Shown: positions 31,901 through 62,400, counted from the stretch's first letter. The stretch: 64,000 bases of DNA from Azolla caroliniana (GCA_043228905.1 JBHGNT010000145.1:1-64000); one strand, 5' to 3'. Made by a program: numbers and translations. The notes: generated by a model not told the origin, from the letters alone.

Positions 31901-32000
31901 TCTGAACTCCCTCCTCATGTTTGCTAATTTCGTCATGTCTCTCGACGTGAGTTTCAAAATCTTGATTTTTTAATTACATATTATCGATAGCGTTGTTAGC
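23600..32000. repeat. Tandem duplication of a 24-monomer block (4213-bp period)
   Basis: Private markers recur 4213 bp apart: AAAGATCCGA at 25911/30124, TAAGGG at 24711/28924 and the 59-bp deletion junction TTGTTAGCTAATTTAC at 27661/31874. 24x178-59=4213. Boundaries are approximate. Confidence 0.88.
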
Positions 32001-43200: not shown

Positions 43201-46200
43201 TTTTTTAATTCCATATTATCGATAGCGTTGTTAGCTTCGATTCGCATGTTTGAACACAAAAATCCGATATCACACGAGCCAGGTATGAACTATTTAATTT
43301 ACTCAAGACCTCCTTTGAACTCCCTCCTCATGTTTGCTAATTTCGTCATGTCTCTCGACCTGAGTTTCAAAATCTTGATTTTTTAATTCCATTTCATAGC
43401 TAGCGTTGTTAGCTTCGATTCGCATGTTTGAACACAAAAATCCGATATCACACGAGCCAGGTATGAACATTTTAATTTACTCAAGGGCTCCTCTCAACTC
43501 ACTCCTCAAATTTGCTAATTTCGTCATTTCTCTCGACCTGAGTTTCAAAATCTTGATTTTTTAACTCCATATCATAGGTAGCGTTGTTAGCTTCGATTCG
43601 CATGTTTGAACACAAAAATCCGATATCACACTCGCCAGGTATGAACATTTTAATTTACTCAAGGCCTCCTCTGAACTCCCTCCTCATGGTTGCTAATTTC
43701 GTCGTGTCTCTGGACCTGAGTTTCATAATCTTGATTTTTTAATTCCATATCATAGCTAGCGTCGCTATCTTCGATTCGCATGTTTGAACACAAAAATCCA
43801 ATATCACACGAGCTAGGTATGAACATTTTAATTTACTCAAGGCCTCCTCTGAACTCCCTCCTTATGTTTGCTAATTTCGTCATGTCTCTCGACCTGAGTT
43901 TCAAAATCTTGATTTTTTAATTCCATATTATCGATAGCGTTGTTAGCTTCGATTCGCATGTTTGAACACAAAAATCCGATATCACACCCGCCAGGTATGA
44001 ACATTTTAATTTACTCAAGGGCTCCTCTCAACTCACTCCTCAAATTTGGTAATTTCGTCGTGTCTCTCGACCTGAGTTTCATAATCTTGATTTTTTAATT
44101 CCATATCATAGCTAGCGTTGTTAGCTTCGATTCGCATGTTTGAACACAAAAATCCGATATCACACGAGCCAGGTATGAACATTTTAATTTACTCAAGGGC
44201 TCCTCTCAACTCACTCCTCAAATTTGCTAATTTCGTCATTTCTCTCGACCTGAGTTTCAAAATCTTGATTTTTTAACTCCATATCATAGCTAGCGTTGTT
44301 AGCTTCGATTCGCATGTTTGAACACAAAAATCCGATATCACACTCGCCAGGTATGAACATTTTAATTTACTCAAGGCCTCCTCTGAACTCCCTCCTCATG
44401 GTTGCTAATTTCGTCGTGTCTCTGGACCTGAGTTTCATAATCTTGATTTTTTAATTCCATTTCATAGCTAGCGTTGTTAGCTTCGATTCGCATGTTTGAA
44501 CACAAAAATCCAATATCACACGAGACAGATATGAACATTTTAATTTACCTACTAGCTCTTCCCAACTCACTCCTCAAATTTGGTAATTTCGTCCTGTCTC
44601 TCGACCTAGGTTTCAAAATCTTGATTTTTTAACTCCATATCATAGCTAGCGTTTTTAATTTCGATTCACATGTTTGACCACAGAAATCCGATATCACACG
44701 AGCCAGGTATGAACATTTTAATTTACTCAAGGCCTCCTCTAAAGTCCCTCCTCATGGTTGCTAATTTCGCCATGTCTCTCGACCTGAGTTTCAAAATCTT
44801 GATTTTTTAAATCCATATCATAGCTAGCGTTGTTAGCTTCGATTCGCATGTTTGAACACAAAAATCCAATATCACACGAGCCAGATATGAACATTTTAAT
44901 TTACCTACTAGCTCTCCCCAACTCAGTCCTGAAATTTGGTAATTTCGTCATGTCTCTCGACCTGAGTTTCAAAATCTTGATTTTTTAATTCCATATCATA
45001 GCTAGCGTTGCTATCTTCGATTCGCATGTTTGAACACAAAAATCCATTATCACACGAGCTAGGTATGAACATTTTAATTTACTCAAGGCCTCCTCTGAAC
45101 TCCCTCCTTATGTTTGCTAATTTCGTCATGTCTCTCGACCTGAGTTTCAAAATCTTGATTTTTTAATTCCATATTATCGATAGCGTTGTTAGCTTCGATT
45201 CGCATGTTTGAACACAAAAATCCAATATCACACTCGCTAGGTATGAACATTTTAATTTACTCAAGGGCTCCTCTCAACTCACTCCTCAAATTTGGTAATT
45301 TCGTCATTTCTCTCGACCTGAGTTTCAAAATCCGATATCACACTCGCCAGGTATGAACATTTTAATTTACTCAAGGCCTCCTTTGAACTCTCTCCTCATG
45401 GTTGCTAATTTCGTCGTGTCTCTCGACCTGAGTTTCAAAATCTTGATTTTTTAATTCCATATTATCGATAGCGTTGTTAGCTTCGATTTGCATGTTTGAA
45501 CACAAAAATCCGATATCACACGAGCCAGGTATGAACATTTTAATTTACTCAAGGCCTCCTCTAAAGTCCCTCCTCATGTTTGCAAATTTCGTCATGTCTC
45601 TCTACTTGAGTTTCAAAATCATGATTTTTTAATTCCATATCATAGCTAGCGTTGTTAGGTTCGATTCGCATGATTGAACACAAAAATCCGATATCACACG
45701 AGCCAGATATGAACATTTTAATTTACCTACTAGCTCTTCCCAACTCACTCCTGAAATTTGGTAATTTCGTCATGTCTCTCGACCTGAGTTTCAAAATCTT
45801 GATTTTTTATTTCCATATCATAGCTAGCGTTGCTATCTTCGATTCGCATGTTTGAACACAAAAATCCAATATCACACGAGCTAGGTATGAACATTTTAAT
45901 TTACTCAAGGCCTCCTCTGAACTCCCTCCTTATGTTTGCTAATTTCGTCATGTCTCTCGACCTGAGTTTCAAAATCTTGATTTTTTAATTCCATATTATC
46001 GATAGCGTTGTTAGCTTCGATTCACATGTTTGAACACAAAAATCCGATATCACACTCGCTAGGTATGAACATTTTAATTTACTCAAGGGCTCCTCTCAAC
46101 TCACTCCTCAAATTTGGTAATTTTGTCATTTCTCTCGACCTAAGTTTCAAAATCTTGATTTTTTAACTCCATATCATAGCTAGCGTTGTTAGCTTCGATT

Positions 46201-49200
46201 CGCATGTTTGAACACAAAAATCCGATATCACACTCGCCAGGTATGAACATTTTAATTTACTCAAGGCCTCCTCTGAACTCCCTCCTCATGGTTGCTAATT
46301 TCGTCGTGTCTCTCGACCTGAGTTTCATAATCTTGATTTTTTAATTCCATTTCATAGCTAGCGTTGTTAGCTTCGATTCGCATGTTTGAACACAAAAATC
46401 CGATATCACACGAGCCAGGTATGAACATTTTAATTTACTCAAGGGCTCCTCTCAACTCACTCCTCAAATTTGCTAATTTCGTCATTTCTCTCGACCTGAG
46501 TTTCAAAATCTTGATTTTTTAACTCCATATCATAGCTAGCGTTGTTAGCTTCGATTCGCATGTTTGAACACAAAAATCCGATATCACACTCGCCAGGTAT
46601 GAACATTTTAATTTACTCAAGGCCTCCTCTGAACTCCCTCCTCATGGTTGCTAATTTCGTCGTGTCTCTAGACCTGAGTTTCATAATCTTGATTTTTTAA
46701 TTCCATTTCATAGCTAGCGTTGTTAGCTTCGATTCGCATGTTTGAACACAAAAATCCGATATCACACGAGCCAGGTATGAACATTTTAATTTACTCAAGG
46801 CCTCCTCTGAACTCCCTCCTCATGTTTGCTAATTTCGTCATGTCTCTCGACGTGAGTTTCAAAATCTTGATTTTTTAATTCCATATTATCGATAGCGTTG
46901 TTAGCTTCGATTTGCATGTTTGAACACAAAAATCCGATATCACACGAGCCAGGTATGAACTATTTAATTTACTCAAGGCCTCCTTTGAACTCCCTCCTCA
47001 TGTTTGCTAATTTCGTCATGTCTCTCGACCTGAGTTTCAAAATCTTGATTTTTTAATTCCATATCATAGCTAGCGTTGTTAGCTTCGATTCGCATGTTTG
47101 AACACAAAAATCCGATATCACACGAGCCAGGTATGAACTATTTAATTTACTCAAGGCCTCCTTTGAACTCCCTCCTCATGTTTGCTAATTTCGTCATGTC
47201 TCTCGACCTGAGTTTCAAAATCTTGATTTTTTAATTCCATATCATAGCTAGCGTTGTTAGCTTCGATTCGCATGTTTGAACACAAAAATCCGATATAACA
47301 CGAGCCAGGTATGAACTATTTAATTTACTCAAGGCCTCCTTTGAACTCCCTCCTCATGTTTGCTAATTTTGTCATGTCTCTCGACCTGAGTTTCAAAATC
47401 TTGATTTTTTAACTCCATATCATAGCTAGCGTTGTTAGCTTCGATTCCCATGTTTGAACACAAAAATCTGATATCACACTCGCTAGGTATGAACATTTTA
47501 ATTTACTCAAGGCCTCCTCTGAACTCCCTCCTCATGTTTGCTAATTTCGTCGTGTCTCTCGACCTGAGTTTCAAAATCTTGATTTTTTAATTCCATATCA
47601 TACCTAGCATTGTTAGCTTCAATTCGCATGTTTGAACACAAAAATCCGATATCACACGAGCCAGGTATGAACATTTTAATTTACTCAAGGCCTCCTTTGA
47701 ACTCCCTCCTCATGTTTGCTAATTTCGTCATGTCTCTCGACCTGAGTTTCAAAATCTTGATTTTTTAATTCCATATTATCGATAGCGTTGTTAGCTTCGA
47801 TTCGCATGTTTGAACACAAAAATCCGATATCACACTCGCTAGGTATGAACATTTTAATTTACTCAAGGGCTCCTCTCAACTCACTCCTCAAATTTGCTAA
47901 TTTCGTCATATCTCTGGACCTGAGTTTCAAAATCTTGATTTTTTAAATCCATATCATAGCTAGCGTTGTTAGCTTCGATTCGCATGTTTGAACACAAAAA
48001 TGCAATATCACACGAGCCAGATATGAACATTTTAATTTACCTACTAGCTCTTCCCAACTCACTCCTCAAATTTGGTAATTTCGTCATGTCTCTCGACTTG
48101 AGTTTCAAAATCATGATTTTTTAATTCCATATCATAGCTAGCGTTGTTAGCTTCGATTCGCATGTTTGAACACAAAAATCCGATATCAGACGAGACAGAT
48201 ATGAACATTTTAATTTACCTACTAGCTCTTCCCAACTCACTCCTCAAATTTGGTAATTTCGTCCTGTCTCTCGACCTAGGTTTCAAAATCTTGATTTTTT
48301 AACTCCATATCATAGCTAGCGTTTTTAATTTCGATTCACATGTTTGAACACAGAAATCCGATATCACACTCGCCAGGTATGAACATTTTAATTTACTCAA
48401 GGCCTCCTCTGAACTCCCTCCTCATGTTTGCAAATTTCGTCATGTCTCTCTACTTGAGTTTCAAAATCATGATTTTTTAATTCCATATTATAGCTAGCGT
48501 TGTTAGCTTCGATTCGCATGTTTGAACACAAAAATCCGATATCACACGAGCCAGATATGAACATTTTAATTTACTCAAGGGCTCCTCTCAACTCACTCCT
48601 CAAATTTGGTAATTTCGTCATTTCTCTCGACCTGAGTTTCAAAATCTTGATTTTTTAACTCCATATCATAGCTAGCGTTGTTAGCTTCGATTCGCATGTT
48701 TGAACACAAAAATCCGATATCACACTCGCCAGGTATGAACATTTTAATTTACTCAAGGCCTCCTCTGAACTCCCTCCGCATGGTTGCTAATTTCGTCGTG
48801 TCTCTCGACCTGAGTTTCATAATCTTGATTTTTTAATTCCATTTCATAGCTAGCGTTGTTAGCTTCGATTCGCATGTTTGAACACAAAAATCCGATATCA
48901 CACGAGCCAGATATGAACATTTTAATTTACCTACTAGCTCTTCCCAACTCAGTCCTGAAATTTGGTAATTTCGTCATGTCTCTCGACCTGAGTTTCAAAA
49001 TCTTGATTTTTTAATTCCATATCATAGCTAGCGTTGCTATCTTCGATTCGCATGTTTGAACACAAAAATCCAATATCACACGAGCTAGGTATGAACATTT
49101 TAATTTACTCAAGGCCTCCTCTGAACTCCCTCCTTATGTTTGCTAATTTCGTCATGTCTCTCGACCTGAGTTTCAAAATCTTGATTTTTTAATTCCATAT

Positions 49201-50699
49201 TATCGATTGCGTTGTTAGCTTCGATTCGCATGTTTGAACACAAAAATCCGATATCACACTCGCTAGGTATGAACATTTTAATTTACTCAAGGGCTCCTCT
49301 CAACTCACTCCTCAAATTTGGTAATTTCGTCATTTCTCTCGATCTGAGTTTCAAAATCTTGATTTTTTAATTCCATATCATAGCTAGCGTTGTTAGCTTC
49401 GATTCGCATGTTGGAACACAAAAATCCGATATCACACTCGCTAGGTATGAACATTTTAATTTACTCAAGGCCTCCTGTGAACTCCCTCCTCATGTTTGCT
49501 AATGTCGTCATGTCTCTCGACTTGAGTTTCAAAATCTTGATTTTTTAATTTCATATCATAGCTAGCGTTGTTAACTTCGATTCGTATGTTTGTACACAAA
49601 AATCCGATATCACACTCGCTAGGTATGAACATTTTAATTTACTCAAGGGCTCCTCTCAACTCACTCCTCAAATTTGCTAATTTCGTCATTTCTCTCGACC
49701 TGAGTTTCAAAATCTTGATTTTTTAACTCCATATCATAGCTAGTGTTGTTAGCTTCGATTCCCATGTTTGAACACAAAAATCCGATATCACACTCGCTAG
49801 GTATGAACATTTTAATTTACTCAAGACCTCCTCTGAACTCCCTCCTCATGTTTGCTAATTTCGTCCCTGAGTTTCAAAATCTTGATTTTTTAATTCCATA
49901 TCATACCTAGCGTTGTTAGCTTCGATTCGCCTGTTTGAACACAAAAATCCGATATCACACGAGCCAGGTATGAACATTTTAATTTACTCAAGGCCTCCTT
50001 TGAACTCCCTCCTCATGTTTGCTAATTTCGTCATGTCTCTCGACCTGAGTTTCAAAATCTTGATTTTTTAATTCCATATTATCGATAGCGTTGTTAGCTT
50101 CGATTCGCATGTTTGAACACAAAAATCCGATATCACACACGCTAGGTATGAACATTTTAATTTACTCAAGGGCTCCTGTGAACTCCCTCCTCATGTTTGC
50201 TAATTTCGTCATGTCTCTCGACCTGAGTTTCAAAATTTTGATTTTTTAACTCCATATCATAGCTAACGTTGTTAGCTTCGATTCGCATGTTTGAATACAA
50301 AAATCCGATATCACACTCGCTAGGTATGAACACTTTAATTTACTCAAGACCTCCTCTCAACTCCCTCCTCATGTTTGCTAATTGCGTTCCTGAGTTTCAA
50401 AATCTTGATTTTTTAATTCCATATCATAGCTAGGGTTGTTAGCTTCGATTCGCATGTTTGAACACAAAAATCCGATATCACACGAGCTAGGTATGAACAT
50501 TTTAATTTACTCAAGGCCTCTTGTGAACTCCCTCCTCATGTTTGCTAATTTGGTCATGTCTCTCGACTTGAGTTTAAAAATCTTGATTTTTTTAATTCCA
50601 TATCATACCTAGCGTTGTTAGCTTCAATTCGCATGTTTGTACACAAAAATCCGATATCACACTCGCTAGGTATGAACATTTTAATTTACTCAAGGGCTC

Positions 50700-50704
50700 C
50701 TCTC
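50700..50704 (+). other. 5' target-site duplication CTCTC
   Basis: The satellite motif CAAGGGCTC-CTCTC-AACTCACTCC is split. CTCTC lies immediately before TGTCA (50705) and again right after TGACA (56492-56496). Confidence 0.95.
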
Positions 50705-50775
50705 TGTCATAACTAGACTCGAACCCATAACCTTTTGTTACACGGGTCGAGACTTTACCATTAGGTTATGAGTTG
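50705..50775 (-). promoter_or_regulatory. tRNA-like Pol III type-2 promoter module (A box + B box), antisense, in 5' LTR U3
   Basis: Minus strand reads CAACTCA-TAACCTAATGG-TAAAGTCTCGACCCGTGTAACAAAAGGTTATG-GGTTCGAGTCT-AGTTATGACA. The A-box-like TAACCTAATGG (50768-50758) and B box GGTTCGAGTC (50725-50716) sit at standard tRNA spacing. Cloverleaf stems are degenerate, so this is not a functional tRNA. Confidence 0.55.
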
Positions 50776-50826
50776 TAATTTGAAGGATATTATTTTCATT
50801 TAGGTTTTATTAGGAAATTGATGTAT

Positions 50827-50876
50827 ATTCCAGATTTCTCTGGAACATTCTAGAAACTTCAGGAGTATTCCTGAAG
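50827..50876. promoter_or_regulatory. Heat-shock element array (10 in-phase alternating nGAAn/nTTCn pentamers)
   Basis: aTTCc aGAtt tcTCt gGAAc aTTCt aGAAa cTTCa gGAgt aTTCc tGAAg: 7 perfect and 3 one-mismatch units, ending 4 bp before the TATA box. Confidence 0.75.
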
Positions 50877-50880
50877 ACAC

Positions 50881-50887
50881 TATAAAA
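50881..50887 (+). promoter_or_regulatory. TATA box of LTR promoter
   Basis: CTATAAAAGG is a canonical TATAWAWR, 33 bp upstream of the predicted start site at 50914. The 3' LTR copy is at 56175. Confidence 0.75.
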
Positions 50888-50913
50888 GGAGGCGCAAGGC
50901 ATTAGTTCGAACC

Positions 50914-50925
50914 AAATCGGTTCAA
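50914..50925 (+). other. Predicted transcript 5' end / self-primer AAATCGGTTCAA
   Basis: Exact reverse complement of 51166-51177, and located at transcription-start distance from the TATA box. Confidence 0.7.
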
Positions 50926-50994
50926 CGCCAGTCTTAAGCCTTCTAACTACTGTTGTATATCTTCCGTCATATAATACATATATCTTTCGCATCA

Positions 50995-50998
<4 letters not shown>

Positions 50999-51034
<36 letters not shown>
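50999..51034 (+). repeat. (TC)18 microsatellite in 5' LTR
   Basis: Read directly from the sequence. Confidence 0.95.
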
Positions 51035-51037
<3 letters not shown>

Positions 51038-51064
51038 CCTTCTCTCAAAGTTCGACACCTCTCA

Positions 51065-51131
51065 TAGTACTAATCCTTCTCTGTCTTAGTACTATTCCCC
51101 AACAATAGTACTAATCCTTCTTTTAGTACTA
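51065..51131. repeat. Four TAGTACTA palindromes in degenerate 18-22 bp repeats at the 3' end of the LTR
   Basis: TAGTACTA at 51065, 51087, 51106 and 51124, mostly followed by A(T)TCC(TTCT). The same arrangement is present in the 3' LTR. Confidence 0.85.
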
Positions 51132-51165
51132 ATTCCTTCTCTGCCTGAATAGAGTTCCTGACAGT

Positions 51166-51177
51166 TTGAACCGATTT
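51166..51177 (+). other. Non-tRNA primer-binding site (self-priming type) TTGAACCGATTT
   Basis: Begins 2 nt (GT) after the LTR-terminal CA, lacks the TGG expected for tRNA-CCA priming, and is a 12/12 complement to 50914-50925. Confidence 0.75.
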
Positions 51178-51252
51178 TCTCCTACTAGTCTCCCTCTTCC
51201 TTCTGTCTCTCTCCTTTCCTACTAGTCTCTTATTTCCCTTTTCCTTCATCCC

Positions 51253-52422
51253 ATGGCCACCGTTAGCGCTGAAGAGTATCAATCCGTTTTCTCGGAATTT
51301 CAATGCTTGAAAGAGAAGTTTCATGCTTTGGAACAAGAAAATCAACGCTTGTTGGGGGATCTTCAGCAAATTTCCTTAGAAAAGCAGCAAACGCAACAAC
51401 AGCATGGGGAACTTGCGTTACGCGTGCAACAACTCGAAGCAACCATCGTAGCAATGCAACAACAAGGGCACGGAGCACAAGGGATTCATAAAGAACCCAA
51501 GATTGGCCTTCCCACGAAGTTCGATGGAACGCGATCGCAGTTTAGAGGGTTTCTTAACCAGGTACGGTTAGTTATTCAAATGCATCCATCCCGATATCCC
51601 ACCGATGCATCACGAGTGGGTTTAGTAGGCACGTTGTTAAATGGCTCAGCATTAGCATGGTTCGCTCCGCTACTAGAAAAGGAATCTCCAGTACTAAATA
51701 ATTTTGAAGAATTCATAAGTGAGTTTAAAGCATGTTTTGGAGATACTGACAGCATAAGGACTGCAATCAACAAAATCCGGCGATTACGCCAAGGTGACCG
51801 TCCAGCCTCCGCATATGCTGCAGATTTCCGCCTACTCGCCGCCGATATCCCCTGGGATGATCAAGCATTGATGGAGCAGTTCCGCTATGGTCTACGCAAC
51901 GATGTCAAGGATTTACTCTTGACTTTCCCTGAAGAGCCAAAATCATTAACAGAAGCAATCAGTCGAGCGGTCAGATGTGACAACCGCCTCTTCGAGCGAC
52001 GTTCGGAACGACAATTTCAGATGCCGAGGGCAAGATCCGAGCCTACCTATGCCTCAATGGTAGCGAAACCTTTTCAAAGGGAGTCACATAATGCGCCTCC
52101 AGTAAGTACTCCAACTCCAATGGAAATTGACACTACACGTCGTCGTGGGCCGCTATCGGAGGAGGAAAAGCAACGACGCCGAACAAACCGATTATGCCTT
52201 TATTGCGGTGGACCAGGGCATATCGCGATAAACTGTCCCCATAGACCAAGAAGGCAGGTAAACCAAGTCATTGTTAGTTCTGACTATACTAAACCCGAGT
52301 CTATGTCAGTAGGAATCTCTGATAATCCTCATAGTCATAATAGTCCTAATAGTACTAATAGTCCGAATCTCGCAAACAAATTTGATGTCCTTAGCCAATT
52401 AGAAGAAGAGTTAAACGACTAA
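51253..52422 (+). CDS. gag: Gag polyprotein (389 aa; coiled-coil N-terminus, retrotransposon capsid domain of the PEG10/RTL1/sushi type, CCHC zinc knuckle)
   Basis: ATG in good context (CCCATGG). Motifs include PTKFDGTRSQFRGFL, LRQG..ASAYAADFR, FRYGLRNDVKD, PTPMEID and CLYCGGPGHIAINC (CX2CX4HX4C, 52195-52236). Confidence 0.95.
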   Translation: MATVSAEEYQSVFSEFQCLKEKFHALEQENQRLLGDLQQISLEKQQTQQQHGELALRVQQLEATIVAMQQQGHGAQGIHKEPKIGLPTKFDGTRSQFRGFLNQVRLVIQMHPSRYPTDASRVGLVGTLLNGSALAWFAPLLEKESPVLNNFEEFISEFKACFGDTDSIRTAINKIRRLRQGDRPASAYAADFRLLAADIPWDDQALMEQFRYGLRNDVKDLLLTFPEEPKSLTEAISRAVRCDNRLFERRSERQFQMPRARSEPTYASMVAKPFQRESHNAPPVSTPTPMEIDTTRRRGPLSEEEKQRRRTNRLCLYCGGPGHIAINCPHRPRRQVNQVIVSSDYTKPESMSVGISDNPHSHNSPNSTNSPNLANKFDVLSQLEEELND

Positions 52423-55400
52423 GTCCAGCCAAAATAGGAGCCGTTTGGTTGGACAGCCCTAGATCTGTGCAGCCCATTAGTGGTTCCATTCCCTCTAAGC
52501 AAGTTAGTGATGTGTTCGTAGTCCAAGTAGCAGTTAGTACTAAAAGAACCCCTCCAGTACATACCTTAGCCCTTCTAGATTCCGGAGCTAATTCTTGCTT
52601 CATGGATAGGAATTTTGCCCGAGCTCATCAGATATCTCTCAGAAAGCTCCCATGTCCAGCCTCAGTAGTAGTCATTGATGGTCGTCCCATTGCTTCTGGT
52701 AATATCATAGAAGAGTCGGAACCCGTTAATATTGTCCTAGATAACTTAACATGTGTAGTATCATTTAATATTATTAGTATTCCAGAACATCCCATAGTTT
52801 TAGGATTACCATGGTTCGAGTTACATGACCCAGACATAGATTGGAGGACAAGGGAAATCCGGTTGCGACAAACCCAAGGATCTACCCAGAAGGTTGCAAC
52901 CATTTCGCTACGTCAGTTGCGTGAGGAAGGGCGCAAGGAGGAAATGTTTCTCTTTGCAATATCAGTACAACCCTCCAGCACCACCAAAGAGGAGTCCACC
53001 GTTCAACTTCCCGAGAAGTATCGTCAGTATGCTGATGTGTTCGATAAAGTACAAGCCAACACACTTCCTCATCATCGGCCGTACGACTGCGCCATCGACT
53101 TACAACCGGGAAAAGAGCCGCCATGGGGGCCGATCTACAATTTGTCACCAACCGAGCTAGAAGTCCTTCGAGCCTATATAGAGGAGAATTTGGAGAACGG
53201 TTTCATTCGGCATTCGAAATCTCCAGCCGGCGCACCCATTTTCTTCGTCAAGAAAAAAGATGGCTCGCTTCGACTCGTTGTAGATTACCGTGGCTTGAAT
53301 AAGGTCACAGTAAGAAATAGGTATGCTCTTCCCCTTATCTCAAGTCTTTTAGAACGGATCAACGGTGCCAGGTTCTTCACGAAGATCGACTTACGAGGAG
53401 CCTATAACCTCGTACGGATCCGACCAGGAGATGAATGGAAGACCGCGTTTCGCACCAGATATGGGCACTTCGAGTATACGGTCATGCCGTTCGGACTCAC
53501 TAATGCGCCGGCAGTCTTCCAGCACATGGCGAATGATATATTTCGAGACCTCTTGGATGATTTTTTGATCATCTATTTGGATGATCTACTGGTTTATTCA
53601 AAGACCCAAGAAGAACATGATTCTCATGTACTATTAGTACTAAAACGACTTCGAGAACATGGTCTGTATGCAAAGTTAGAGAAATGTAGTTTCGGGTGCA
53701 ACCAAGTGGAGTTTCTCGGCTATGTCATCTCCTCAGAAGGCATATCTATGGACCCAGCCAAGGTCAAAACGGTGATAGAATGGCACACTCCGCGTTCGGT
53801 GCGGGATGTGCAATGCTTCCTAGGCTTTGCAAATTTCTATCGGAAGTTCATACAAAATTACTCAAAAATTGTGCTGCCTCTCACACAGCTCACCAGGAAG
53901 GGACAATCATTCATTTGGTCTAAAGAGACGGACATGGCTTTCGAGAGTCTTAAGAAGGCGTTTACATCAGCTCCAATTTTAGGTCATGTGGATCCGGAAA
54001 AACCATTCATTATCGAAGCTGATGCATCGGATTTCGCATTGGGGAGCATTCTGTCACAACAGGGTAACGACGAGAAGCTACATCCTGTGGCTTTCCACTC
54101 CCGTAAGTTTGACGCCGCCGAAATCAACTACGAAATTCATGATAAAGAGCTATTAGCAATAGTTGATTCTTTTATGCAATGGAGGCATTTCCTGGAGGGA
54201 TCTCCTCATCAGGTCACTGTATTCAGTGACCACAAGAACCTTGCCTACTTTCAAGATGCTCGTGTACTGAATCGACGTCAAGCTCGGTGGGCCCATTTCC
54301 TCACACGCTTCGACTTCAAAATTACATATCGTCCGGGGAAGCACCAAGGGAAGGCAGATGCATTATCACGGCGCTCGTATCTAACACCACGTCCCGGTGA
54401 GCCAGCTTTCGATAACCAGAAGCAAGTAATCTTGGGTCCAGCACGACTGCAAGCAGCACAGATCTTTGACATGCCCGTGGATTCCGACATTACCAATACT
54501 ATACGTGAGGACTTGAAGACTGACGCTTTCGCCCAAGCTATACTAGCACAAATTGACCCCTCTCGAGCGTCATGTTCACAATCACAATCACCAGGTACGG
54601 ATTATCGGCAATTCAAATACTGTGATGGATTACTCTTCTTTAAAGAACTTTTGTATGTTCCTAATGGTTCTTGCCGCCTTCAAGTAGTACAAAACTGCCA
54701 TGACACATATACAGCAGGACATTTTGGTAGTACTAAAACATTAGATTTAGTACAACGATCATTCTGGTGGCCCCGTATGCGACAATTTGTCGAAGATTTT
54801 GTTCGGACTTGCGATACATGCTGCAGAGCGAAAATGCCAAGACATCATCCATATGGTTTATTAGAACCATTACCAATTCCAAGCAAGCCATGGCAATCCA
54901 TTGCTCTTGACTTCATTACAGATCTTCCAGTCTCTAAGGGATTCAGTGCGATTCTCACAGTGGTGGATCGATATACGAAGATGGCTCATTTCTTACCATG
55001 TACTAAAGAAATATCTAGTGAAGACACCGCCGAAATTGTCATGCGGGAAGTATGTCGGCATCATGGACTCCCTGATAATATCATCAGCGATCGTGGACCC
55101 CAGTTTGTGTCAAAATTCTGGAAGCACCTTTTTAAAATGCTGAAGGTCACTTGTAACCTCTCCTCCGGCTACCACCCACAAACCGACGGTCAAGCCGAAC
55201 GAACAAATCAAACACTGGAGCAGTATCTGCGGTGCTTTCTCAACTATCATCAGAATGACTGGGCAGATATTCTTCCGTTCGCCGAATTTGCCTATAATAA
55301 CGCTATCCACGCATCGACTAAAGTCACGCCATTCTACGCTTATACGGGATATCATCCCCGGTGGTGTGTCCTTGAAACCCCAGAAGTGTCCACAAATCCT

Positions 55401-56006
55401 TGCGCGGAGGATCGTTTGGAGCGGTTACGCAAGATACAAGCGGATTTATCTACTCAACTCCAGCAAGCTCAACAATCACACAAGGACTACGCAGATCGTC
55501 ATCGACTTCCATCCAGTTTTAACATTGGAGATCGGGTGTGGCTGCTACGACGACACATCAAGACTACTCGCCCATGTGAGAAGTTGGATTATCGACGATT
55601 AGGTCCTTTCCGTATTATCGGGAAGATTAATGATGTCGCTTTTCGTCTCGAGCTACCTCCGCAACTTCGGATACACCCGGTGTTTCATAGTTCTCTCCTC
55701 GAACCCTATCACGAGAGCACTATCCCAGGACGTACTATACAACCTCCACCTCCTATCGAGCTCGAAGATGGACCTGAGTATGAGGTCGCTGCCATCCTCG
55801 ATTCCAAGATTGTTCGCAACAAGCTCTACTATCTAGTCGATTGGCTAGGATATAGTCCCAGCGAGCGTACTTGGGAACCGATCGAGAATGTGACCAATGC
55901 TCGTGCTCTTCTAGAAGACTTCCATCGACGATATCCCGAGAAACCGGGTCCTCAATCCAAAACGACTCGTGAAACTCGTCGTTTTAAAGGGGGGATAGTG
56001 TCATAA
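52395..56006 (+). CDS. pol: Pol polyprotein: aspartic protease, reverse transcriptase, RNase H, integrase, chromodomain; expressed as Gag-Pol by -1 frameshift
   Basis: The ORF track gives 52449-56006 from a TTG, but the frame is open from 52395 and overlaps the gag end in the -1 frame. Motifs: ALLDSGA (D at 52578), MPFGLTNAPAVFQ, YLDD (53574-53585), EADASDFALG, NYEIHDKELLAIV, H..GHFG..C..C, DFITDLP, SDRGPQF, QTDGQAERTNQ, GPF and EYEV..ILD..YLVDWLGY..TWEP. Confidence 0.96.
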   Translation, partial: PIRRRVKRLSPAKIGAVWLDSPRSVQPISGSIPSKQVSDVFVVQVAVSTKRTPPVHTLALLDSGANSCFMDRNFARAHQISLRKLPCPASVVVIDGRPIASGNIIEESEPVNIVLDNLTCVVSFNIISIPEHPIVLGLPWFELHDPDIDWRTREIRLRQTQGSTQKVATISLRQLREEGRKEEMFLFAISVQPSSTTKEESTVQLPEKYRQYADVFDKVQANTLPHHRPYDCAIDLQPGKEPPWGPIYNLSPTELEVLRAYIEENLENGFIRHSKSPAGAPIFFVKKKDGSLRLVVDYRGLNKVTVRNRYALPLISSLLERINGARFFTKIDLRGAYNLVRIRPGDEWKTAFRTRYGHFEYTVMPFGLTNAPAVFQHMANDIFRDLLDDFLIIYLDDLLVYSKTQEEHDSHVLLVLKRLREHGLYAKLEKCSFGCNQVEFLGYVISSEGISMDPAKVKTVIEWHTPRSVRDVQCFLGFANFYRKFIQNYSKIVLPLTQLTRKGQSFIWSKETDMAFESLKKAFTSAPILGHVDPEKPFIIEADASDFALGSILSQQGNDEKLHPVAFHSRKFDAAEINYEIHDKELLAIVDSFMQWRHFLEGSPHQVTVFSDHKNLAYFQDARVLNRRQARWAHFLTRFDFKITYRPGKHQGKADALSRRSYLTPRPGEPAFDNQKQVILGPARLQAAQIFDMPVDSDITNTIREDLKTDAFAQAILAQIDPSRASCSQSQSPGTDYRQFKYCDGLLFFKELLYVPNGSCRLQVVQNCHDTYTAGHFGSTKTLDLVQRSFWWPRMRQFVEDFVRTCDTCCRAKMPRHHPYGLLEPLPIPSKPWQSIALDFITDLPVSKGFSAILTVVDRYTKMAHFLPCTKEISSEDTAEIVMREVCRHHGLPDNIISDRGPQFVSKFWKHLFKMLKVTCNLSSGYHPQTDGQAERTNQTLEQYLRCFLNYHQNDWADILPFAEFAYNNAIHASTKVTPFYAYTGYHPRWCVLETPEVSTNPCAEDRLERLRKIQADLSTQLQQAQQSHKDYADRHRLPSSFNIGDRVWLLRRHIKTTRPCEKLDYRRLGPFRIIGKINDVAFRLELPPQLRIHPVFHSSLLEPYHESTIPGRTIQPPPPIELEDGPEYEVAAILDSKIVRNKLYYLVDWLGYSPSERTWEPIENVTNARALLEDFHRRYPEKPGPQSKTTRETRRFKGGIVS
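52410..52461 (+). promoter_or_regulatory. -1 programmed ribosomal frameshift signal: G_UUA_AAC heptamer plus stem-loop/pseudoknot
   Basis: G TTA AAC at 52410-52416 in gag phase, then a 6-nt spacer. An 11-bp stem forms between GTCCAGCCAAA (52423-52433) and TTTGGTTGGAC (52444-52454; one G-U). Loop TAGG(A)GC can pair with GCCCTA (52456-52461). Confidence 0.8.
55776..55925 (+). other. Integrase C-terminal chromodomain (group I-like, aromatic cage residues retained)
   Basis: EYEVAAILDSKIVRNKLYYLVDWLGYSPSERTWEPIENVTNARALLEDFH matches the HP1-type chromodomain pattern (Y..; W.GY; TWEP). Confidence 0.9.
55986..55998 (+). other. Polypurine tract AAAGGGGGGATAG
   Basis: Purine run immediately 5' of the 3' LTR start TG (55999). 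Confidence 0.9.
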
Positions 56007-56288
56007 CTAGACTCGAACCCATAACCTTTTCTTACACGGGTCGAGACTTTACCATTAGGTTATGAGTTGTAATTTGAAGGATATTATTTTCATTTAGGTT
56101 TTATTAGGAAATTGATGTATATTCCAGATTTCTCTGGAACATTCTAGAAACTTCAGGAGTATTCCTGAAGACACTATAAAAGGAGGCGCAAGGCATTAGT
56201 TCGAACCAAATCGGTTCAACGCCAGTCTTAAGCCTTCTAACTACTGTTGTATATCTTCCGTCATATAATACATATATCTTTCGCATCA

Positions 56289-56358
<70 letters not shown>

Positions 56359-56491
56359 ACTCATTCCTTCTCTCAAAGTTCGACACCTCTCATAGTACTA
56401 ATCCTTCTCTGTCTTAGTACTATTCCCCAACAATAGTACTAATCCTTCTTTTAGTACTAATTCCTTCTCTGCCTGAATAGAGTTCCTGACA
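55999..56491 (+). repeat. 3' LTR (493 bp)
   Basis: TGTCATAACTAG...GTTCCTGACA. Carries second copies of the A/B-box module (55999-56069), HSE (56121-56170) and TATA (56175). Confidence 0.97.
56293..56362 (+). repeat. (TC)31(ACTC)2 microsatellite in 3' LTR
   Basis: Read directly; 34 bp longer than the 5' LTR copy, which accounts for the whole LTR length difference. Confidence 0.93.
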
Positions 56492-56496
56492 CTCTC
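56492..56496 (+). other. 3' target-site duplication CTCTC
   Basis: Follows TGACA and continues in satellite phase as AACTCACTCCTCAAATTTG. Confidence 0.95.
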
Positions 56497-59400
56497 AACT
56501 CACTCCTCAAATTTGCTAATTTCGTCATTTCTCTCGACCTGAGTTTCAAAATCTTGATTTTTTAACTCCATATCATAGCTAGCGTTTGAACACAAAAATC
56601 CGATATCACACTCGCCAGGTATGAACATTTTAATTTACTCAAGCCCTCCTCTGAACTCCCTCCTCATGGTTGCTAATTTCGTCGTGTCTCTCGACCTGAG
56701 TTTTATAATCTTGATTTTTTAATTCCATTTCATAGCTAGCGTTGTTAGCTTCGATTCGCATGTTTGAACACAAAAATCCGATATCACACGAGCCAGGTAT
56801 GAACATTTTAATTTACTCAAGGCCTCCTCTAAACTCCCTCCTCATGTTTGCTAATTTCGTCATGTCTCTCGACCTGAGTTTCAAAATCTTGATTTTTTAA
56901 TTCCATATCATAGCTAGCGTGGTTAGCTTCGATTCGCATGATTGAATACAAAAATCCGATATCACACGAGCTAGGTATGAACATTTTAATTTACTCAAGG
57001 CCTCCTGTGAACTCCCTCCTCATGTTTGCTAATTTGGTCATGTCTCTCGACTTGAGTTTCAAAATCTTGATTTTTTTAATTCCATATCATACCTAGCGTT
57101 GTTAGCTTCCATTCACATGTTTGTACACAAAAATCCGATATCACACTCGCTAGGTATGAACATTTTAATGTACTCAAGGGCTCCTCTCAACTCACTCCTC
57201 AAATTTGGTAATTTCGTCATTTCTCTCGACCTGAGTTTCAAAATCTTGAGTTTTTTAACTCCATATCATAGCTAGCGTTGTTAGCTTCGATTCGCATGTT
57301 TGAACACAAAAATCCGATATCACACTCGCCAGGTATGAACATTTTAATTTACTCAAGGCCTCCTCTGAACTCCCTCCTCATGGTTGCTAATTTCGTCGTG
57401 TCTCTCGACCTGAGTTTTATAATGTTGATTTTTTAATCCCATTTCATAGCTAGCGTTGTTAGCTTCGATTCGCATGTTTGAACACAAAAATCCGATATCA
57501 CACTCGCTAGGTATGAACCTTTTAATTTACTCAAGGCCTCCTCTGAACTCCCTCCTCATGTTTGCTAATTTCGTCATGTCTCTCGACCTGAGTTTCAAAA
57601 TCTTGATTTTTTAATTCCATATTATCGATAGCGTTGTTAGATTCGATTCGCATGTTTGAACACAAAAATCCGATATCACACGAGCCAGGTATGAACATTT
57701 TAATTTACTCAAGGCCTCCTTTGAACTCCCTCCTCATGTTTGCTAATTTCGTCATGTCTCTCGACCTGAGTTTCAAAATCTTGATTTTTTAATTCCATAT
57801 CATACCTAACGGTGTTAGCTTCGATTCGCGTGTTTGTACACAAAAATCCGATATCACACTCGCTAGGTATGAACATTTTAATTTACTCAAGGGCTCCTCT
57901 GAACTCCCTCCTCATGTTTGCTAATTTCGTCGTGTCTCTCGACCTGAGTTTCAAAATCTTGATTTTTTAAAAACATATCATAGCTAGCGTTGTTAGCTTC
58001 GATTCGCATGTTAGAACACAAAAATCCGATATCACCCGAGCTAGGTATGAACATTTTAATTTACTCAAGGCCTCTTGTGAACTCCCTCCTCATGGTTGCT
58101 AATTTCGTCGTGTCTCTCGACCTGAGTTTCATAATCTTGATTTTTTAATTCCATTTCATAGCTAGCGTTGTTAGCTTCGATTCGCATGTTTGAACACAAA
58201 AATCCGATATCACACGAGCCAGATATGAACATTTTAATTTACCTACTAGCTCTTCCCAACTCAGTCCTGAAATTTGGTAATTTCGTCATGTCTCTCGACC
58301 TGAGTTTCAAAATCTTGATTTTTTAATTCCATATCATAGCTAGCGTTGCTATCTTCGATTCGCATGTTTGAACACAAAAATCCAATATCACACGAGCTAG
58401 GTATGAACATTTTAATTTACTCAAGGCCTCCTCTGAACTCCCTCCTTATGTTTGCTAATTTCGTCATGTCTCTCGACCTGAGTTTCAAAATCTTGATTTT
58501 TTAATTCCATATTATCGATTGCGTTGTTAGCTTCGATTCGCATGTTTGAACACAAAAATCCGATATCACACTCGCTAGGTATGAACATTTTAATTTACTC
58601 AAGGGCTCCTCTCAACTCACTCCTCAAATTTGCTAATTTCGTCATTTCTCTCGACCTGAGTTTCAAAATCTTGATTTTTTAATTCCATATCATAGCTAGC
58701 GTTGTTAGCTTCGATTCGCATGTTGGAACACAAAAATCCGATATCACACTCGCTAGGTATGAACATTTTAATTTACTCAAGGCCTCCTGTGAACTCCCTC
58801 CTCATGTTTGCTAATGTCGTCATGTCTCTCGACTTGAGTTTCAAAATCTTGATTTTTTAATTTCATATCATAGCTAACGTTGTTAACTTCGATTCGTATG
58901 TTTGTACACAAAAATCCGATATCACACTCGCTAGGTATGAACATTTTAATTTACTCAAGGGCTCCTCTGAACTCCCTCCTCATGTTTGCTAATTTCGTCA
59001 TGTCTCTCGACCTGAGTTACAAAATCTTGATTTTTTAAAAACATATCATAGCTAGCGTTGTTAGCTTCGATTCGCATGTTAGAACACAAAAATCCGATAT
59101 CACCCGAGCTAGGTATGAACATTTTAATTTACTCAAGGCCTCTTGTGAACTCCCTCCTCATGGTTGCTAATTTCGTCGTGTCTCTCGACCTGAGTTTCAT
59201 AATCTTGATTTTTTAATTCCATTTCATAGCTAGCGTTGTTAGCTTCGATTCGCATGTTTGAACACAAAAATCCGATATCACACGAGCCAGATATGAACAT
59301 TTTAATTTACCTACTAGCTCTTCCCAACTCAGTCCTGAAATTTGGTAATTTCGTCATGTCTCTCCACCTGAGTTTCAAAATCTTGATCTTTTAATTCCAT

Positions 59401-62400
59401 ATCATAGCTAGCGTTGCTATCTTCGATTCGCATGTTTGAACACAAAAATCCAATATCACACGAGCTAGGTATGAACATTTTAATTTACTCAAGGCCTCCT
59501 CTGAACTCCCTCCTTATGTTTGCTAATTTCGTCATGTCTCTCGACCTGAGTTTCAAAATCTTGATTTTTTAATTCCATATTATCGATTGCGTTGTTAGCT
59601 TCGATTCGCATGTTTGAACACAAAAATCCGATATCACACTCGCTAGGTATGAACATTTTAATTTACTCAAGGGCTCCTCTCAACTCACTCCTCAAATTTG
59701 CTAATTTCGTCATTTCTCTCGACCTGAGTTTCAAAATCTTGATTTTTTAATTCCATATCATAGCTAGCGTTGTTAGCTTCGATTCGCATGTTGGAACACA
59801 AAAATCCGATATCACACTCGCTAGGTATGAACATTTTAATTTACTCAAGGCCTCCTGTGAACTCCCTCCTCATGTTTGCTAATGTCGTCATGTCTCTCGA
59901 CTTGAGTTTCAAAATCTTGATTTTTTAATTTCATATCATAGCTAACGTTGTTAACTTCGATTCGTATGTTTGTACACAAAAATCCGATATCACACTCGCT
60001 AGGTATGAACATTTTAATTTACTCAAGGGCTCCTCTCAACTCACTCCTCAAATTTGCTAATTTCGTCATTTCTCTCGACCTGAGTTTCAAAATCTTGATT
60101 TTTTAACTCCATATCATAGCTAGCGTTGTTAGCTTCGATTCCCATGTTTGAACACAAAAATCCGATATCACACTCGCTAGGTATGAACATTTTAATTTAC
60201 TCAAGACCTCCTCTGAACTCCCTCCTCATGTTTGCTAATTTCGTCCCTGAGTTTCAAAATCTTGATTTTTTAATTCCATATCATACCTAGCGTTGTTAGC
60301 TTCGATTCGCCTGTTTGAACACAAAAATCCGATATCACACGAGCCAGGTATGAACATTTTAATTTACTCAAGGCCTCCTTTGAACTCCCTCCTCATGTTT
60401 GCTAATTTCGTCATGTCTCTCGACCTGAGTTTCAAAATCTTGATTTTTTAATTCCATATTATCGATAGCGTTGTTAGCTTCGATTCGCATGTTTGAACAC
60501 AAAAATCCGATATCACACACGCTAGGTATGAACATTTTAATTTACTCAAGGGCTCCTCTGAACTCCCTCCTCATGTTTGCTAATTTCGTCATGTCTCTCG
60601 ACCTGAGTTTCAAAATTTTGATTTTTTAACTCCATATCATAGCTAACGTTGTTAGCTTCGATTCGCATGTTTGAATACAAAAATCCGATATCACACTCGC
60701 TAGGTATGAACACTTTAATTTACTCAAGACCTCCTCTCAACTCCCTCCTCATGTTTGCTATTTGCGTCCTTGAGTTTCAAAATCTTGATTTTTTAATTCC
60801 ATATCATAGCTAGGGTTGTTAGCTTCGATTCGCATGTTTGAACACAAAAATCCGATATCACACGAGCTAGGTATGAACATTTTAATTTACTCAAGGCCTC
60901 TTGTGAACTCCCTCCTCATGTTTGCTAATTTGGTCATGTCTCTCGACTTGAGTTTAAAAATCTTGATTTTTTTAATTCCATATCATACCTAGCGTTGTTA
61001 GCTTCAATTCGCATGTTTGTACACAAAAATCCGATATCACACTCGCTAGGTATGAACATTTTAATTTACTCAAGGGCTCCTCTCAACTCACTCCTCAAAT
61101 TTGCTAATTTCGTCATTTCTCTCGACCTGAGTTTCAAAATCTTGATTTTTTAACTCCATATCATAGCTAGCGTTGTTAGCTTCGATTCGCATGTTTGAAC
61201 ACAAAAATCCGATATCACACTCGCCAGGTATGAACATTTTAATTTACTCAAGGCCTCCTCTGAACTCCCTCCTCATGTTTGCTAATGTCGTCATGTCTCT
61301 CGACTTGAGTTTCAAAATCTTGATTTTTTAATTTCATATCATAGCTAACGTTGTTAACTTCGATTCGTATGTTTGTACACAAAAATCCGATATGACACTC
61401 GCTAGGTATGAACATTTTAATTTACTCAAGGGCTCCTCTCAACTCACTCCTCAAATTTGCTAATTTCGTCATTTCTCTCGACCTGAGTTTCAAAATCTTG
61501 ATTTTTTAACTCCATATCATAGCTAGCGTTGTTAGCTTCGATTCCCATGTTTGAACACAAAAATCCGATATCACACTCGCTAGGTATGAACATTTTAATT
61601 TACTCAAGACCTCCTCTGAACTCCCTCCTCATGTTTGCTAATTTCGTCCCTGAGTTTCAAAATCTTGATTTTTTAATTCCATATCATACCTAGCGTTGTT
61701 AGCTTCGATTCGCCTGTTTGAACACAAAAATCCGATATCACACGAGCCAGGTATGAACATTTTAATTTACTCAAGGCCTCCTTTGAACTCCCTCCTCATG
61801 TTTGCTAATTTCGTCATGTCTCTCGACCTGAGTTTCAAAATCTTGATTTTTTAATTCCATATTATCGATAGCGTTGTTAGCTTCGATTCGCATGTTTGAA
61901 CACAAAAATTCGATATCACACACGCTAGGTATGAACATTTTAATTTACTCAAGGGCTCCTCTGAACTCCCTCCTCATGTTTGCTAATTTCGTCATGTCTC
62001 TCGACCTGAGTTTCAAAATTTTGATTTTTTAACTCCATATCATAGCTAACGTTGTTAGCTTCGATTCGCATGTTTGAATACAAAAATCCGATATCACACT
62101 CGCTAGGTATGAACACTTTAATTTACTCAAGACCTCCTCTCAACTCCCTCCTCATGGTTGCTATTTTCGTCGTGTCTCTCGACCTGAGTTTCAAAATCTT
62201 GATTTTTTAATTCCATATCATAGCTAGGGTTGTTAGCTTCGATTCGCATGTTTGAACACAAAAATCCGATATCACACGAGCTAGGTATGAACATTTTAAT
62301 TTACTCAAGGCCTCTTGTGAACTCCCTCCTCATGTTTGCTAATTTGGTCATGTCTCTCGACTTGAGTTTAAAAATCTTGATTTTTTTAATTCCATATCAT

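What the first reader, a model, noticed from the sequence alone, without database searches (positions are those of the whole stretch)
50700..56496. Intact, very young chromovirus inserted directly in the satellite: candidate active centromere-targeting element
Seen: perfect TSD, intact ORFs and only one substitution between LTRs outside the microsatellite. Established: known satellite-centromere colonisers are CRM (CR motif), ATHILA and some Copia (ALE/Tal1); Tcn-type chromoviruses mark Cryptococcus centromeres; group I chromodomains can bind H3K9me. Inference: a Tcn1/Tf1-like element with a canonical chromodomain targeting satellite heterochromatin. Self-priming, an HSE array and an outward Pol III-like module together would make an unusual stress-inducible system.
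Basis: partly seen in the sequence, partly recalled or inferred. Interest (0 to 1): 0.7.

Follow-up and report, generated by a model that had tools for sequence, protein, structure and literature searches.

The report
Fern retrotransposon with outward tRNA promoter
A very young, intact jumping gene sits inside a chromosome-end satellite of what is likely a fern, but its roughly 260 sister copies are scattered over all chromosomes with no clear excess in that satellite; its more unusual trait is a conserved, outward-facing tRNA-type promoter sequence at the tip of each terminal repeat, which likely shields or regulates a predicted heat-inducible promoter.

Summary
In detail: a 5,787-bp intact chromovirus with a 5-bp target duplication and one LTR substitution sits in a 178-bp satellite. 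Centromere targeting is not supported. Ten of 255 family insertions (11 of 256 with one found separately) are satellite-flanked, while the satellite is 2.5-2.8% of the assembly: 1.3-1.7-fold, p 0.06-0.28. Other copies are equally young, and the satellite lies next to telomere repeats. Copies favour repeat-rich DNA in general. The element groups with fungal and vertebrate Tf1/Sushi elements (Tcn1 type), self-primes (compensatory changes in relatives), has a heat-shock-element array and a predicted -1 frameshift signal; the host is likely a fern. It beats every shuffle in 16 of 17 related LTRs, including families whose other U3 sequence barely aligns, and in 0 of 8 distant elements. Promoter letters are conserved, tRNA structure is not. 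I found such modules in print only for non-autonomous elements. Function is untested.

The parts
50700..50704 (+). Left target-site duplication (5 bp)
50705..51163 (+). 5' LTR (459 bp)
50711..50769 (-). tRNA-derived module, antisense and pointing out of the element: A box 50758-50768, variable-loop motif, B box 50716-50724, at tRNA spacing; anticodon and acceptor stems lost
   Evidence: ARAGORN and Rfam find no tRNA here
50828..50875 (+). Heat-shock-element array (alternating GAA/TTC units at 5-bp period)
   Evidence: heat response itself untested
50881..50887 (+). TATA box
   Evidence: lies 33 bases before the self-primer
50914..50925 (+). Self-primer (predicted 5' end of the transcript)
50999..51034 (+). 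(CT)n microsatellite in the 5' LTR
51166..51177 (+). Primer-binding site complementary to the self-primer, 2 bases from the LTR end
51253..52422 (+). gag, 389 aa, capsid domain and CCHC knuckle
52410..52454 (+). Predicted -1 frameshift signal: heptamer 52410-52416 and 11-bp stem-loop 52423-52454
   Evidence: the stem-loop and the last six letters of the heptamer are kept in 5 of 5 relatives; frameshifting untested
52395..56006 (+). pol in the -1 frame: protease, RT, RNase H, integrase, SH3, chromodomain; its stop codon lies in the first 8 bases of the 3' LTR
55779..55931 (+). Group I chromodomain with the three cage aromatics (Y1129, W1150, Y1153 of the pol frame)
55986..55998 (+). Polypurine tract
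55999..56491 (+). 3' LTR (493 bp)
56005..56063 (-). Second copy of the tRNA-derived module; read-through would cross the polypurine tract and meet a T4 run after about 107 nt
56492..56496 (+). Right target-site duplication
1..50704 (+). 178-bp satellite array, left of the element; telomere-adjacent on assembled chromosomes
56492..64000 (+). 178-bp satellite array, right of the element (continues to the contig end at 66,663)

Best explanation
This is a very young, intact copy of a dispersed family of Tf1/Sushi-group (likely Tcn1) chromoviruses in what is likely a fern, which landed in a telomere-adjacent satellite about as often as chance predicts and likely inserts into repeat-rich silent chromatin in general rather than into centromeres. 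Shown: structure, youth, dispersal, bias to repeat-rich flanks, and conservation of four cis signals among relatives. Inferred working cycle: heat-shock factor binds the HSE array and drives Pol II from the TATA box; the first 12 nt of the RNA fold back on the primer site and self-prime reverse transcription; Pol is made by a -1 frameshift; the cage-type chromodomain tethers integrase to methylated H3K9 chromatin (other retrotransposons, satellite). At the outer tip of each LTR a tRNA-derived A/B-box module points away from the element. It is kept as promoter letters, not as a tRNA fold, so it most likely acts as DNA that binds TFIIIC (with or without short Pol III transcripts) and buffers the heat-inducible promoter against the silent chromatin the element inserts into. 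That last step is the least certain (about even odds).
For: Dispersal: 274 exact PPT-LTR junctions; 269 outer ends listed, on all 22 chromosome-scale contigs. Satellite share: 73,276 motif hits at 0.89-1.0 hits per monomer (0.89 and 0.95 measured) gives 13.0-14.7 Mb, 2.5-2.8%; 10 of 255 insertions in satellite, ratio 1.4-1.6, p 0.11-0.18. Satellite insertions are at different monomer positions, 5 in one orientation and 6 in the other. LTR mismatches 0-5 in 9 satellite copies, 0-1 in 9 others. Flanks: 34 of 40 insertion flanks against 20 of 40 random stretches match another sampled stretch (54% against 25% of bases, p 1.5e-4; Fisher p 0.0016). Tree: 100/100 with fungal and vertebrate elements, apart from seed-plant and algal ones. 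Self-priming with compensatory changes in L096, L100, L103, L112. Module: profile from 11 tRNAs of this genome beats all 200 resamplings in 16 of 17 LTR starts on the minus strand, 0 of 8 distant elements; covariance model puts its best hit there (22.1 bits, E 5e-4, L096); 1,246 of 2,182 lineage PPT-LTR junctions in this genome carry the exact antisense B-box core within 45 bases; 46 of 47 sampled family LTRs keep both boxes.
Against: The point estimate of satellite enrichment is above 1 in every variant (1.3-1.7) and the interval reaches about 3. Retrotransposon domains in flanks are only suggestive: 17 of 40 against 9 of 40, p 0.09. Repeat-rich flanks can also come from selection against insertions in genes. 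In the window itself the tRNA model scores only 9.8 bits (E 1.6 over 64 kb). No covariation supports any fold of the module (424 of 500 shuffles as high). Several of the 17 LTRs are close relatives: about 7 families by eye. In L095, L098 and L105 the primer and primer site shown differ at one position (assembled from mixed copies). No named Tcn1 reference was in the tree. No binding, transcript or chromatin data exist here for the module, the HSE array or the chromodomain.
Confidence: 0.65

Rival explanations
1. The family is a centromere-seeking element: the satellite is the centromere of telocentric chromosomes and the chromodomain steers copies into it, with array homogenisation purging them.
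For: 11 independent satellite insertions; ratio 1.3-1.7; 178-bp monomer; satellite at the assembled start of 14 of 22 chromosomes and at the far end of only 3 of 19 examined.
Against: About 96% of copies lie outside the satellite; p 0.06-0.28; satellite copies are not younger; the satellite lies within about 0.5 kb of telomere arrays on 6 chromosomes and occurs on both ends of C8, C14 (mirror orientation) and C17; none of the 19 far ends examined reaches a telomere array, so one-endedness may be an assembly gap.
Confidence: 0.08
2. The module works as RNA, not as a boundary: either Pol III makes a short antisense RNA from the 3' LTR across the polypurine tract (self-limiting or small-RNA source), or the tRNA-complementary stretch in the sense U3 pairs with a host tRNA to help strand transfer or dimerisation.
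For: A T4 run ends the 3'-LTR read-through after about 107 nt and follows the B box directly in L121, L149 and L153. tRNA-complementary stretches in U3 are recalled for HIV-1 and Ty3 (from memory; the paper was not held).
Against: No covariation in either stem; the anticodon region is free to vary; the element self-primes and needs no tRNA primer; terminator position differs among families.
Confidence: 0.2
3. The module is a functionless relic of a tRNA or SINE head captured by the lineage's ancestor, kept by chance or by an overlapping end-of-LTR constraint such as integrase recognition or a hairpin.
For: It lies at the LTR tip, overlaps an imperfect hairpin in the window's family, is degenerate in L102 and L143, and 936 of 2,182 junctions lack the exact 7-letter core.
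Against: It persists in L099, L100, L101, L102, L103, L112 and L143, where the rest of U3 gives alignment scores of 17-47 against 15-25 for unrelated elements; its distance from the LTR end varies from 15 to 64 bases while box spacing is held.
Confidence: 0.25

Closest known systems
Tcn1 clade of chromoviruses, plant members of the Tf1/Sushi group (Neumann et al. 2019, PMC6317226, passages read; Novikova et al. 2010, PMC2864245, passages read; SM-Tcn1 of Selaginella)
   Same: Two ORFs, about 5.7 kb, LTRs of about 450 bp, 5-bp duplication, group I chromodomain with aromatic cage (95% of Tcn1), self-priming instead of a tRNA primer, grouping with fungal and vertebrate elements.
   Different: Host is likely a fern, whereas those papers report moss and club-moss hosts in the passages I read; none of those passages mentions a tRNA-derived module or an HSE array in the LTR; no named Tcn1 sequence was in my tree.
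Helenus, Cassandra and Ajax, the 'TRIMp3' elements (Kojima 2024, PMC10886601, abstract, passages and section 3.5 read)
   Same: Small-RNA-derived Pol III promoter in both LTRs; Helenus keeps A and B boxes of a tRNA while the tRNA is mostly non-functional.
   Different: Those are short and non-autonomous and the Pol III promoter is proposed to make the template RNA; here the element is autonomous, has a Pol II promoter, and the module faces outward. That paper expects autonomous partners to use Pol II and to share little LTR sequence with TRIMp3.
Centromere colonisers (CRM, ATHILA, Tal1/ALE; recalled, and CRM as described in PMC6317226)
   Same: Young intact LTR element inside a tandem array of nucleosome-sized monomers.
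   Different: No significant excess in the satellite, self-priming, cage-type chromodomain, and an array that adjoins telomeres.
HSE-bearing LTR retrotransposons (ONSEN; flatworm Ty3 families, PMC12801592, abstract read)
   Same: Array of alternating GAA/TTC units just upstream of the TATA box.
   Different: Different lineage; heat induction not tested here; the array is absent from some sister families (L101, L102, L103, L143).
MAGGY chromovirus (as reviewed in PMC3350952, passages read) and tRNA-derived B2 SINE boundaries (PMC8136502, abstract read)
   Same: MAGGY: group I chromodomain that binds H3K9me2/3 and targets heterochromatin. B2: a mobile tRNA-derived element acting as a chromatin boundary.
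   Different: Analogies for mechanism only; the B2 abstract credits CTCF, which is not a plant factor (recalled), and neither binding nor boundary activity was tested here.

Membership tests
Tf1/Sushi group (Tcn1 type) | Ty3/gypsy order PR-RT-RH-IN with C-terminal chromodomain | tested here: met
Tf1/Sushi group (Tcn1 type) | Group I chromodomain with aromatic cage | tested here: met
   aligns with HP1/SUV39H1 chromodomains, E 3e-9; Y, W, Y present
Tf1/Sushi group (Tcn1 type) | Self-priming site in place of a tRNA primer site | tested here: met
   12-bp pairing, compensatory changes in relatives
Tf1/Sushi group (Tcn1 type) | RT-RH groups with fungal and vertebrate elements, apart from seed-plant chromoviruses | tested here: met
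   100/100 in a 33-row tree, midpoint root, long branches present
Tcn1 clade in the strict sense | Clusters with named Tcn1 references (Cryptococcus Tcn1, Physcomitrium, SM-Tcn1) | not tested
   no named reference came up; REXdb supplements not read
Centromere-targeting elements (CRM, ATHILA, Tal1) | Strong enrichment of young copies in the satellite arrays | tested here: not met
   10 of 255 against 6.4-7.1 expected
Centromere-targeting elements (CRM, ATHILA, Tal1) | The host array carries CENH3 | not testable with these tools
   array is telomere-adjacent; no chromatin data
Helenus / TRIMp3 | tRNA-derived A and B boxes in both LTRs | tested here: met
Helenus / TRIMp3 | Short and non-autonomous | tested here: not met
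   5,787 bp with intact gag and pol
Functional tRNA gene | Cloverleaf with paired acceptor and anticodon stems | tested here: not met
   ARAGORN none; no Rfam tRNA match in the window; 12.6 bits against a cut-off of 29 in L096; no covariation
Heat-inducible LTR elements (ONSEN-like) | HSE array upstream of the TATA box | tested here: met
   24 of 27 letters, null maximum 18
Heat-inducible LTR elements (ONSEN-like) | Transcription rises on heat stress | not testable with these tools
   no suitable RNA reads on hand

The most novel reading that the evidence does not exclude
A whole lineage of autonomous fern chromoviruses carries its own tRNA-derived TFIIIC barrier at the outer tip of each LTR, so that it can insert into silent chromatin through its chromodomain and still fire a heat-shock promoter, seeding well over a thousand outward-facing Pol III promoter sites across the genome.
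Probability: 0.3. Interest if true: 0.7.

Novelty: new variant of a known kind. Interest (0 to 1): 0.42.

Why it matters
The centromere story does not stand, so this does not add a new centromere coloniser. What remains is an autonomous retrotransposon lineage with a conserved outward tRNA-type promoter in U3. If it binds TFIIIC it would show how a heterochromatin-seeking element keeps its promoter inducible, would offer a plant test case for tRNA-gene-type barriers, and would suggest a source for the tRNA-bearing LTRs of non-autonomous elements such as Helenus. It also extends Tcn1-type elements to a fern and marks a very recent burst of about 260 copies.

Tried and rejected
A first junction count with a 17-base LTR anchor found only the window's copy; it missed copies with an LTR variant and was replaced by the full listing. 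The first satellite estimate from an exact 24-mer (30,271 hits) would have given 1.3% and a false 3-fold enrichment; that motif hits only 0.29 of monomers in other arrays. One search listed duplicates and was replaced. The G-T partition is incomplete and missed a known satellite copy (C8, 257-263 kb), so results are given with and without it. Sphagnum was considered as host (PMC9946827, passages read) and dropped after LEAFY matched ferns at 91-93% and Sphagnum at 79-82%. One search used misplaced T-stem columns and was redone. Sequencing runs: no RNA holder listed. Contigs of four DNA runs laid on the left junction showed no listed piece bridging it and cannot give copy numbers, so insertion polymorphism is untested. 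Rfam miRNA and snoRNA hits are far below their cut-offs and were ignored. Paper searches for Azolla or fern centromeres and for fern Tcn1 gave nothing relevant.

Full report
1. The observation. The window is a 178-bp tandem array broken by one 5,787-bp element at 50705-56491. The LTRs are 459 and 493 bp and differ by one substitution and one 34-bp gap in a (CT)n tract. The 5-bp duplication is exact, and the empty site occurs 53 times in the array. gag and pol are open, and Pfam finds Gag, protease, RT, RNase H, integrase, SH3 and Chromo in Ty3/gypsy order. One change in 459 bases is about 0.1 million years at a generic plant rate of 1e-8 (rate recalled, not calibrated for this host).

2. Host and class. 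The genome is 523 Mb with 22 chromosome-scale contigs; the window is an unplaced 66.7-kb contig. Its LEAFY domain is 93% identical to Anemia and Ceratopteris and 79-82% to Sphagnum, so the host is likely a fern; Azolla fits the chromosome number and size (recalled, not tested). Two earlier notes on this genome also call it a fern; I reached that before reading them. RT-RNase H groups with fungal and vertebrate elements (100/100), apart from seed-plant and algal rows, in a tree of 33 rows (32 of the 120 hits, picked to span identity and names). The chromodomain matches HP1 and SUV39H1 types with the three cage aromatics. Neumann et al. (PMC6317226, passages) describe Tcn1 as the plant branch of Tf1/Sushi, mostly self-priming, with the cage in 95%. 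So it works like Tcn1 and is probably a member, but no named Tcn1 sequence was in the tree.

3. Is it satellite-targeted? There are 274 exact PPT-LTR junctions in the genome. I listed outer LTR ends with their flanks in seven partitions: 38, 63, 45, 17, 38, 41 and 27 places, 269 in all. I dropped 14 rows (4 nested in the family's own gag, 3 tandem duplicates, 1 5'-LTR variant, 4 of another family, 2 LTR-in-LTR junctions), leaving 255. Ten are satellite-flanked, picked by eye and confirmed by BLAST, as was an eleventh that the last partition missed. The satellite motif has 73,276 hits at up to two mismatches, control 0; at 0.89-1.0 hits per monomer this is 2.5-2.8% of the assembly. Expected 6.4-7.1, seen 10: ratio 1.4-1.6, 95% interval about 0.7-2.9, p 0.11-0.18; across all variants (with or without the window, the eleventh copy or the dropped rows) 1.3-1.7, p 0.06-0.28. 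Collapsed arrays would inflate this ratio, not hide it (inference). Satellite copies are no younger: 0-5 LTR mismatches in 9 measurable satellite copies, 0-1 in 9 of 12 sampled others (3 not measurable); full-length gag and pol in 7 of 9 and 6 of 9. The satellite lies beside telomere arrays on six chromosomes and on both ends of three, so it is more likely subtelomeric, though telocentric centromeres are not excluded.

4. What it does prefer. Forty insertion flanks (every third row and every second) were compared with 40 random 2-kb stretches. Flanks match other sampled stretches over 54% of bases against 25% (p 1.5e-4) and have higher GC. LTR-retrotransposon domains occur in 17 of 40 against 9 of 40 (p 0.09), and ordinary host-gene domains in 3 random stretches and no flank, leaving aside three ambiguous flank hits; only the one or two longest frames per stretch were scanned. 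This fits chromodomain tethering to H3K9-methylated chromatin, as reported for MAGGY (PMC3350952, passages), but selection against genic insertions gives the same pattern.

5. Replication signals. The 12 bases after the 5' LTR pair with 50914-50925, 33 bases after the TATA box. Both partners change together in L096 and in L100, L103 and L112; three other loci show a one-letter mismatch. gag and pol overlap in the -1 frame in 5 of 5 relatives that show both, with a slippery-type heptamer and an 11-bp stem-loop kept in all. The HSE array scores 24 of 27 (null maximum 18) and scores 21-25 in 10 of 14 relatives long enough to scan, including three whose U3 hardly aligns otherwise. HSE-bearing LTRs are known from ONSEN and flatworm Ty3 families (PMC12801592, abstract).

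6. The tRNA-derived module. Read on the minus strand, LTR bases 7-65 give an A box, the GG of the D loop, a variable-loop motif and a B box at tRNA spacing. ARAGORN and Rfam do not call it. A covariance model from 11 tRNAs of this genome ranks the two LTR copies first in the window, weakly (9.8 bits, E 1.6); over 22 loci its best hit is the homologous site in L096 (E 5e-4), and 8 of 18 listed hits fall on the homologous site, the rest elsewhere. From 79 metagenome loci I examined 36; 16 with 55-94% protein identity and 10 more distant ones showed an LTR start, 10 did not. A box-and-spacing profile beats all 200 first-order resamplings in the window and 15 of the 16 relatives (L143: 2 of 200), only on the minus strand, and in none of 8 distant elements tested. 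It persists where the rest of U3 has lost similarity, and its distance from the LTR end varies from 15 to 64 bases. In this genome 1,246 of 2,182 lineage junctions carry the exact 7-letter core within 45 bases, where about 0.5% is expected by my estimate. The D and T stems pair in 68% of cells but show no covariation, and anticodon and acceptor stems are lost. Promoter letters are therefore under constraint and the fold is not, which points to a DNA-level TFIIIC site. Its place, between the flank and the HSE-TATA promoter and facing out, suits a barrier; antisense Pol III RNA across the PPT and a tRNA-pairing role are the rivals.

7. Comparison with print. Kojima (PMC10886601; abstract, passages, section 3.5) describes tRNA-derived boxes in LTRs of Helenus, which is short and non-autonomous. 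Searches for the same in autonomous elements or chromoviruses and for fern Tcn1 returned no description; the library lacks most subscription papers, and I did not read the supplements of PMC6317226 or PMC10886601, which may list such LTRs. The scan's own index had no match by sequence or words.

8. Verdict. Observation confirmed; centromere targeting not supported (about 8%). The element is an ordinary young Tcn1-type chromovirus in most respects. The conserved outward tRNA-type promoter in an autonomous lineage is a new variant with untested function. Interest 0.42.

Noticed in passing
G000 chromosome starts and ends (L011-L049, L051-L053, L061): The 178-bp satellite sits at the assembled start of 14 of 22 chromosomes (15 with C7, where it begins at 7.9 kb), next to TTTAGGG arrays on six, and on both ends of C8, C14 and C17. 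It totals about 13-15 Mb. No far end examined (0 of 19) reaches a telomere array. Subtelomeric or telocentric-centromeric is open.
   Followed up: partly
G000 C1-C22: Family density differs tenfold among chromosomes (0.10-1.09 per Mb, chi-square p 8e-10), and two LEAFY loci lie about 0.6 Mb from the start of C1 and C21. Possible subgenome or repeat-density effect.
   Followed up: no
G000 C1:11-27 Mb: About 45 of 59 listed lineage junctions on C1 fall in the middle of the chromosome (counted by eye), a broad interstitial cluster that could mark pericentric heterochromatin away from the satellite.
   Followed up: no
G000 C12:18.91-18.93 Mb, C2:12.25-12.27 Mb, C2:7.91 Mb: Family LTR ends joined to the family's own gag, and tandem repeats of identical junctions: nested or locally amplified copies.
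   Followed up: no
G000 C19:16305723 and 16310316; C3:25915148 and 25919749: A different 4.6-kb element, with what looks like a tRNA-Met primer site (motif recalled), shares the last 13 bases of the LTR with this family.
   Followed up: no
L173-L181 (C5:17.99 Mb), L190 (C2:20.11 Mb): Tandem arrays of tRNA-Lys and tRNA-Ile genes with many variant copies.
   Followed up: no
window 27573-27788, 31786-32001, 33685-33900: Three copies of the same 119-bp deletion monomer, pointing to multi-kilobase duplications inside the array.
   Followed up: no
window 52322-52368: 9-bp tandem repeat (5.2 copies) encoding a Ser/Pro/Asn-rich linker at the end of Gag.
   Followed up: no
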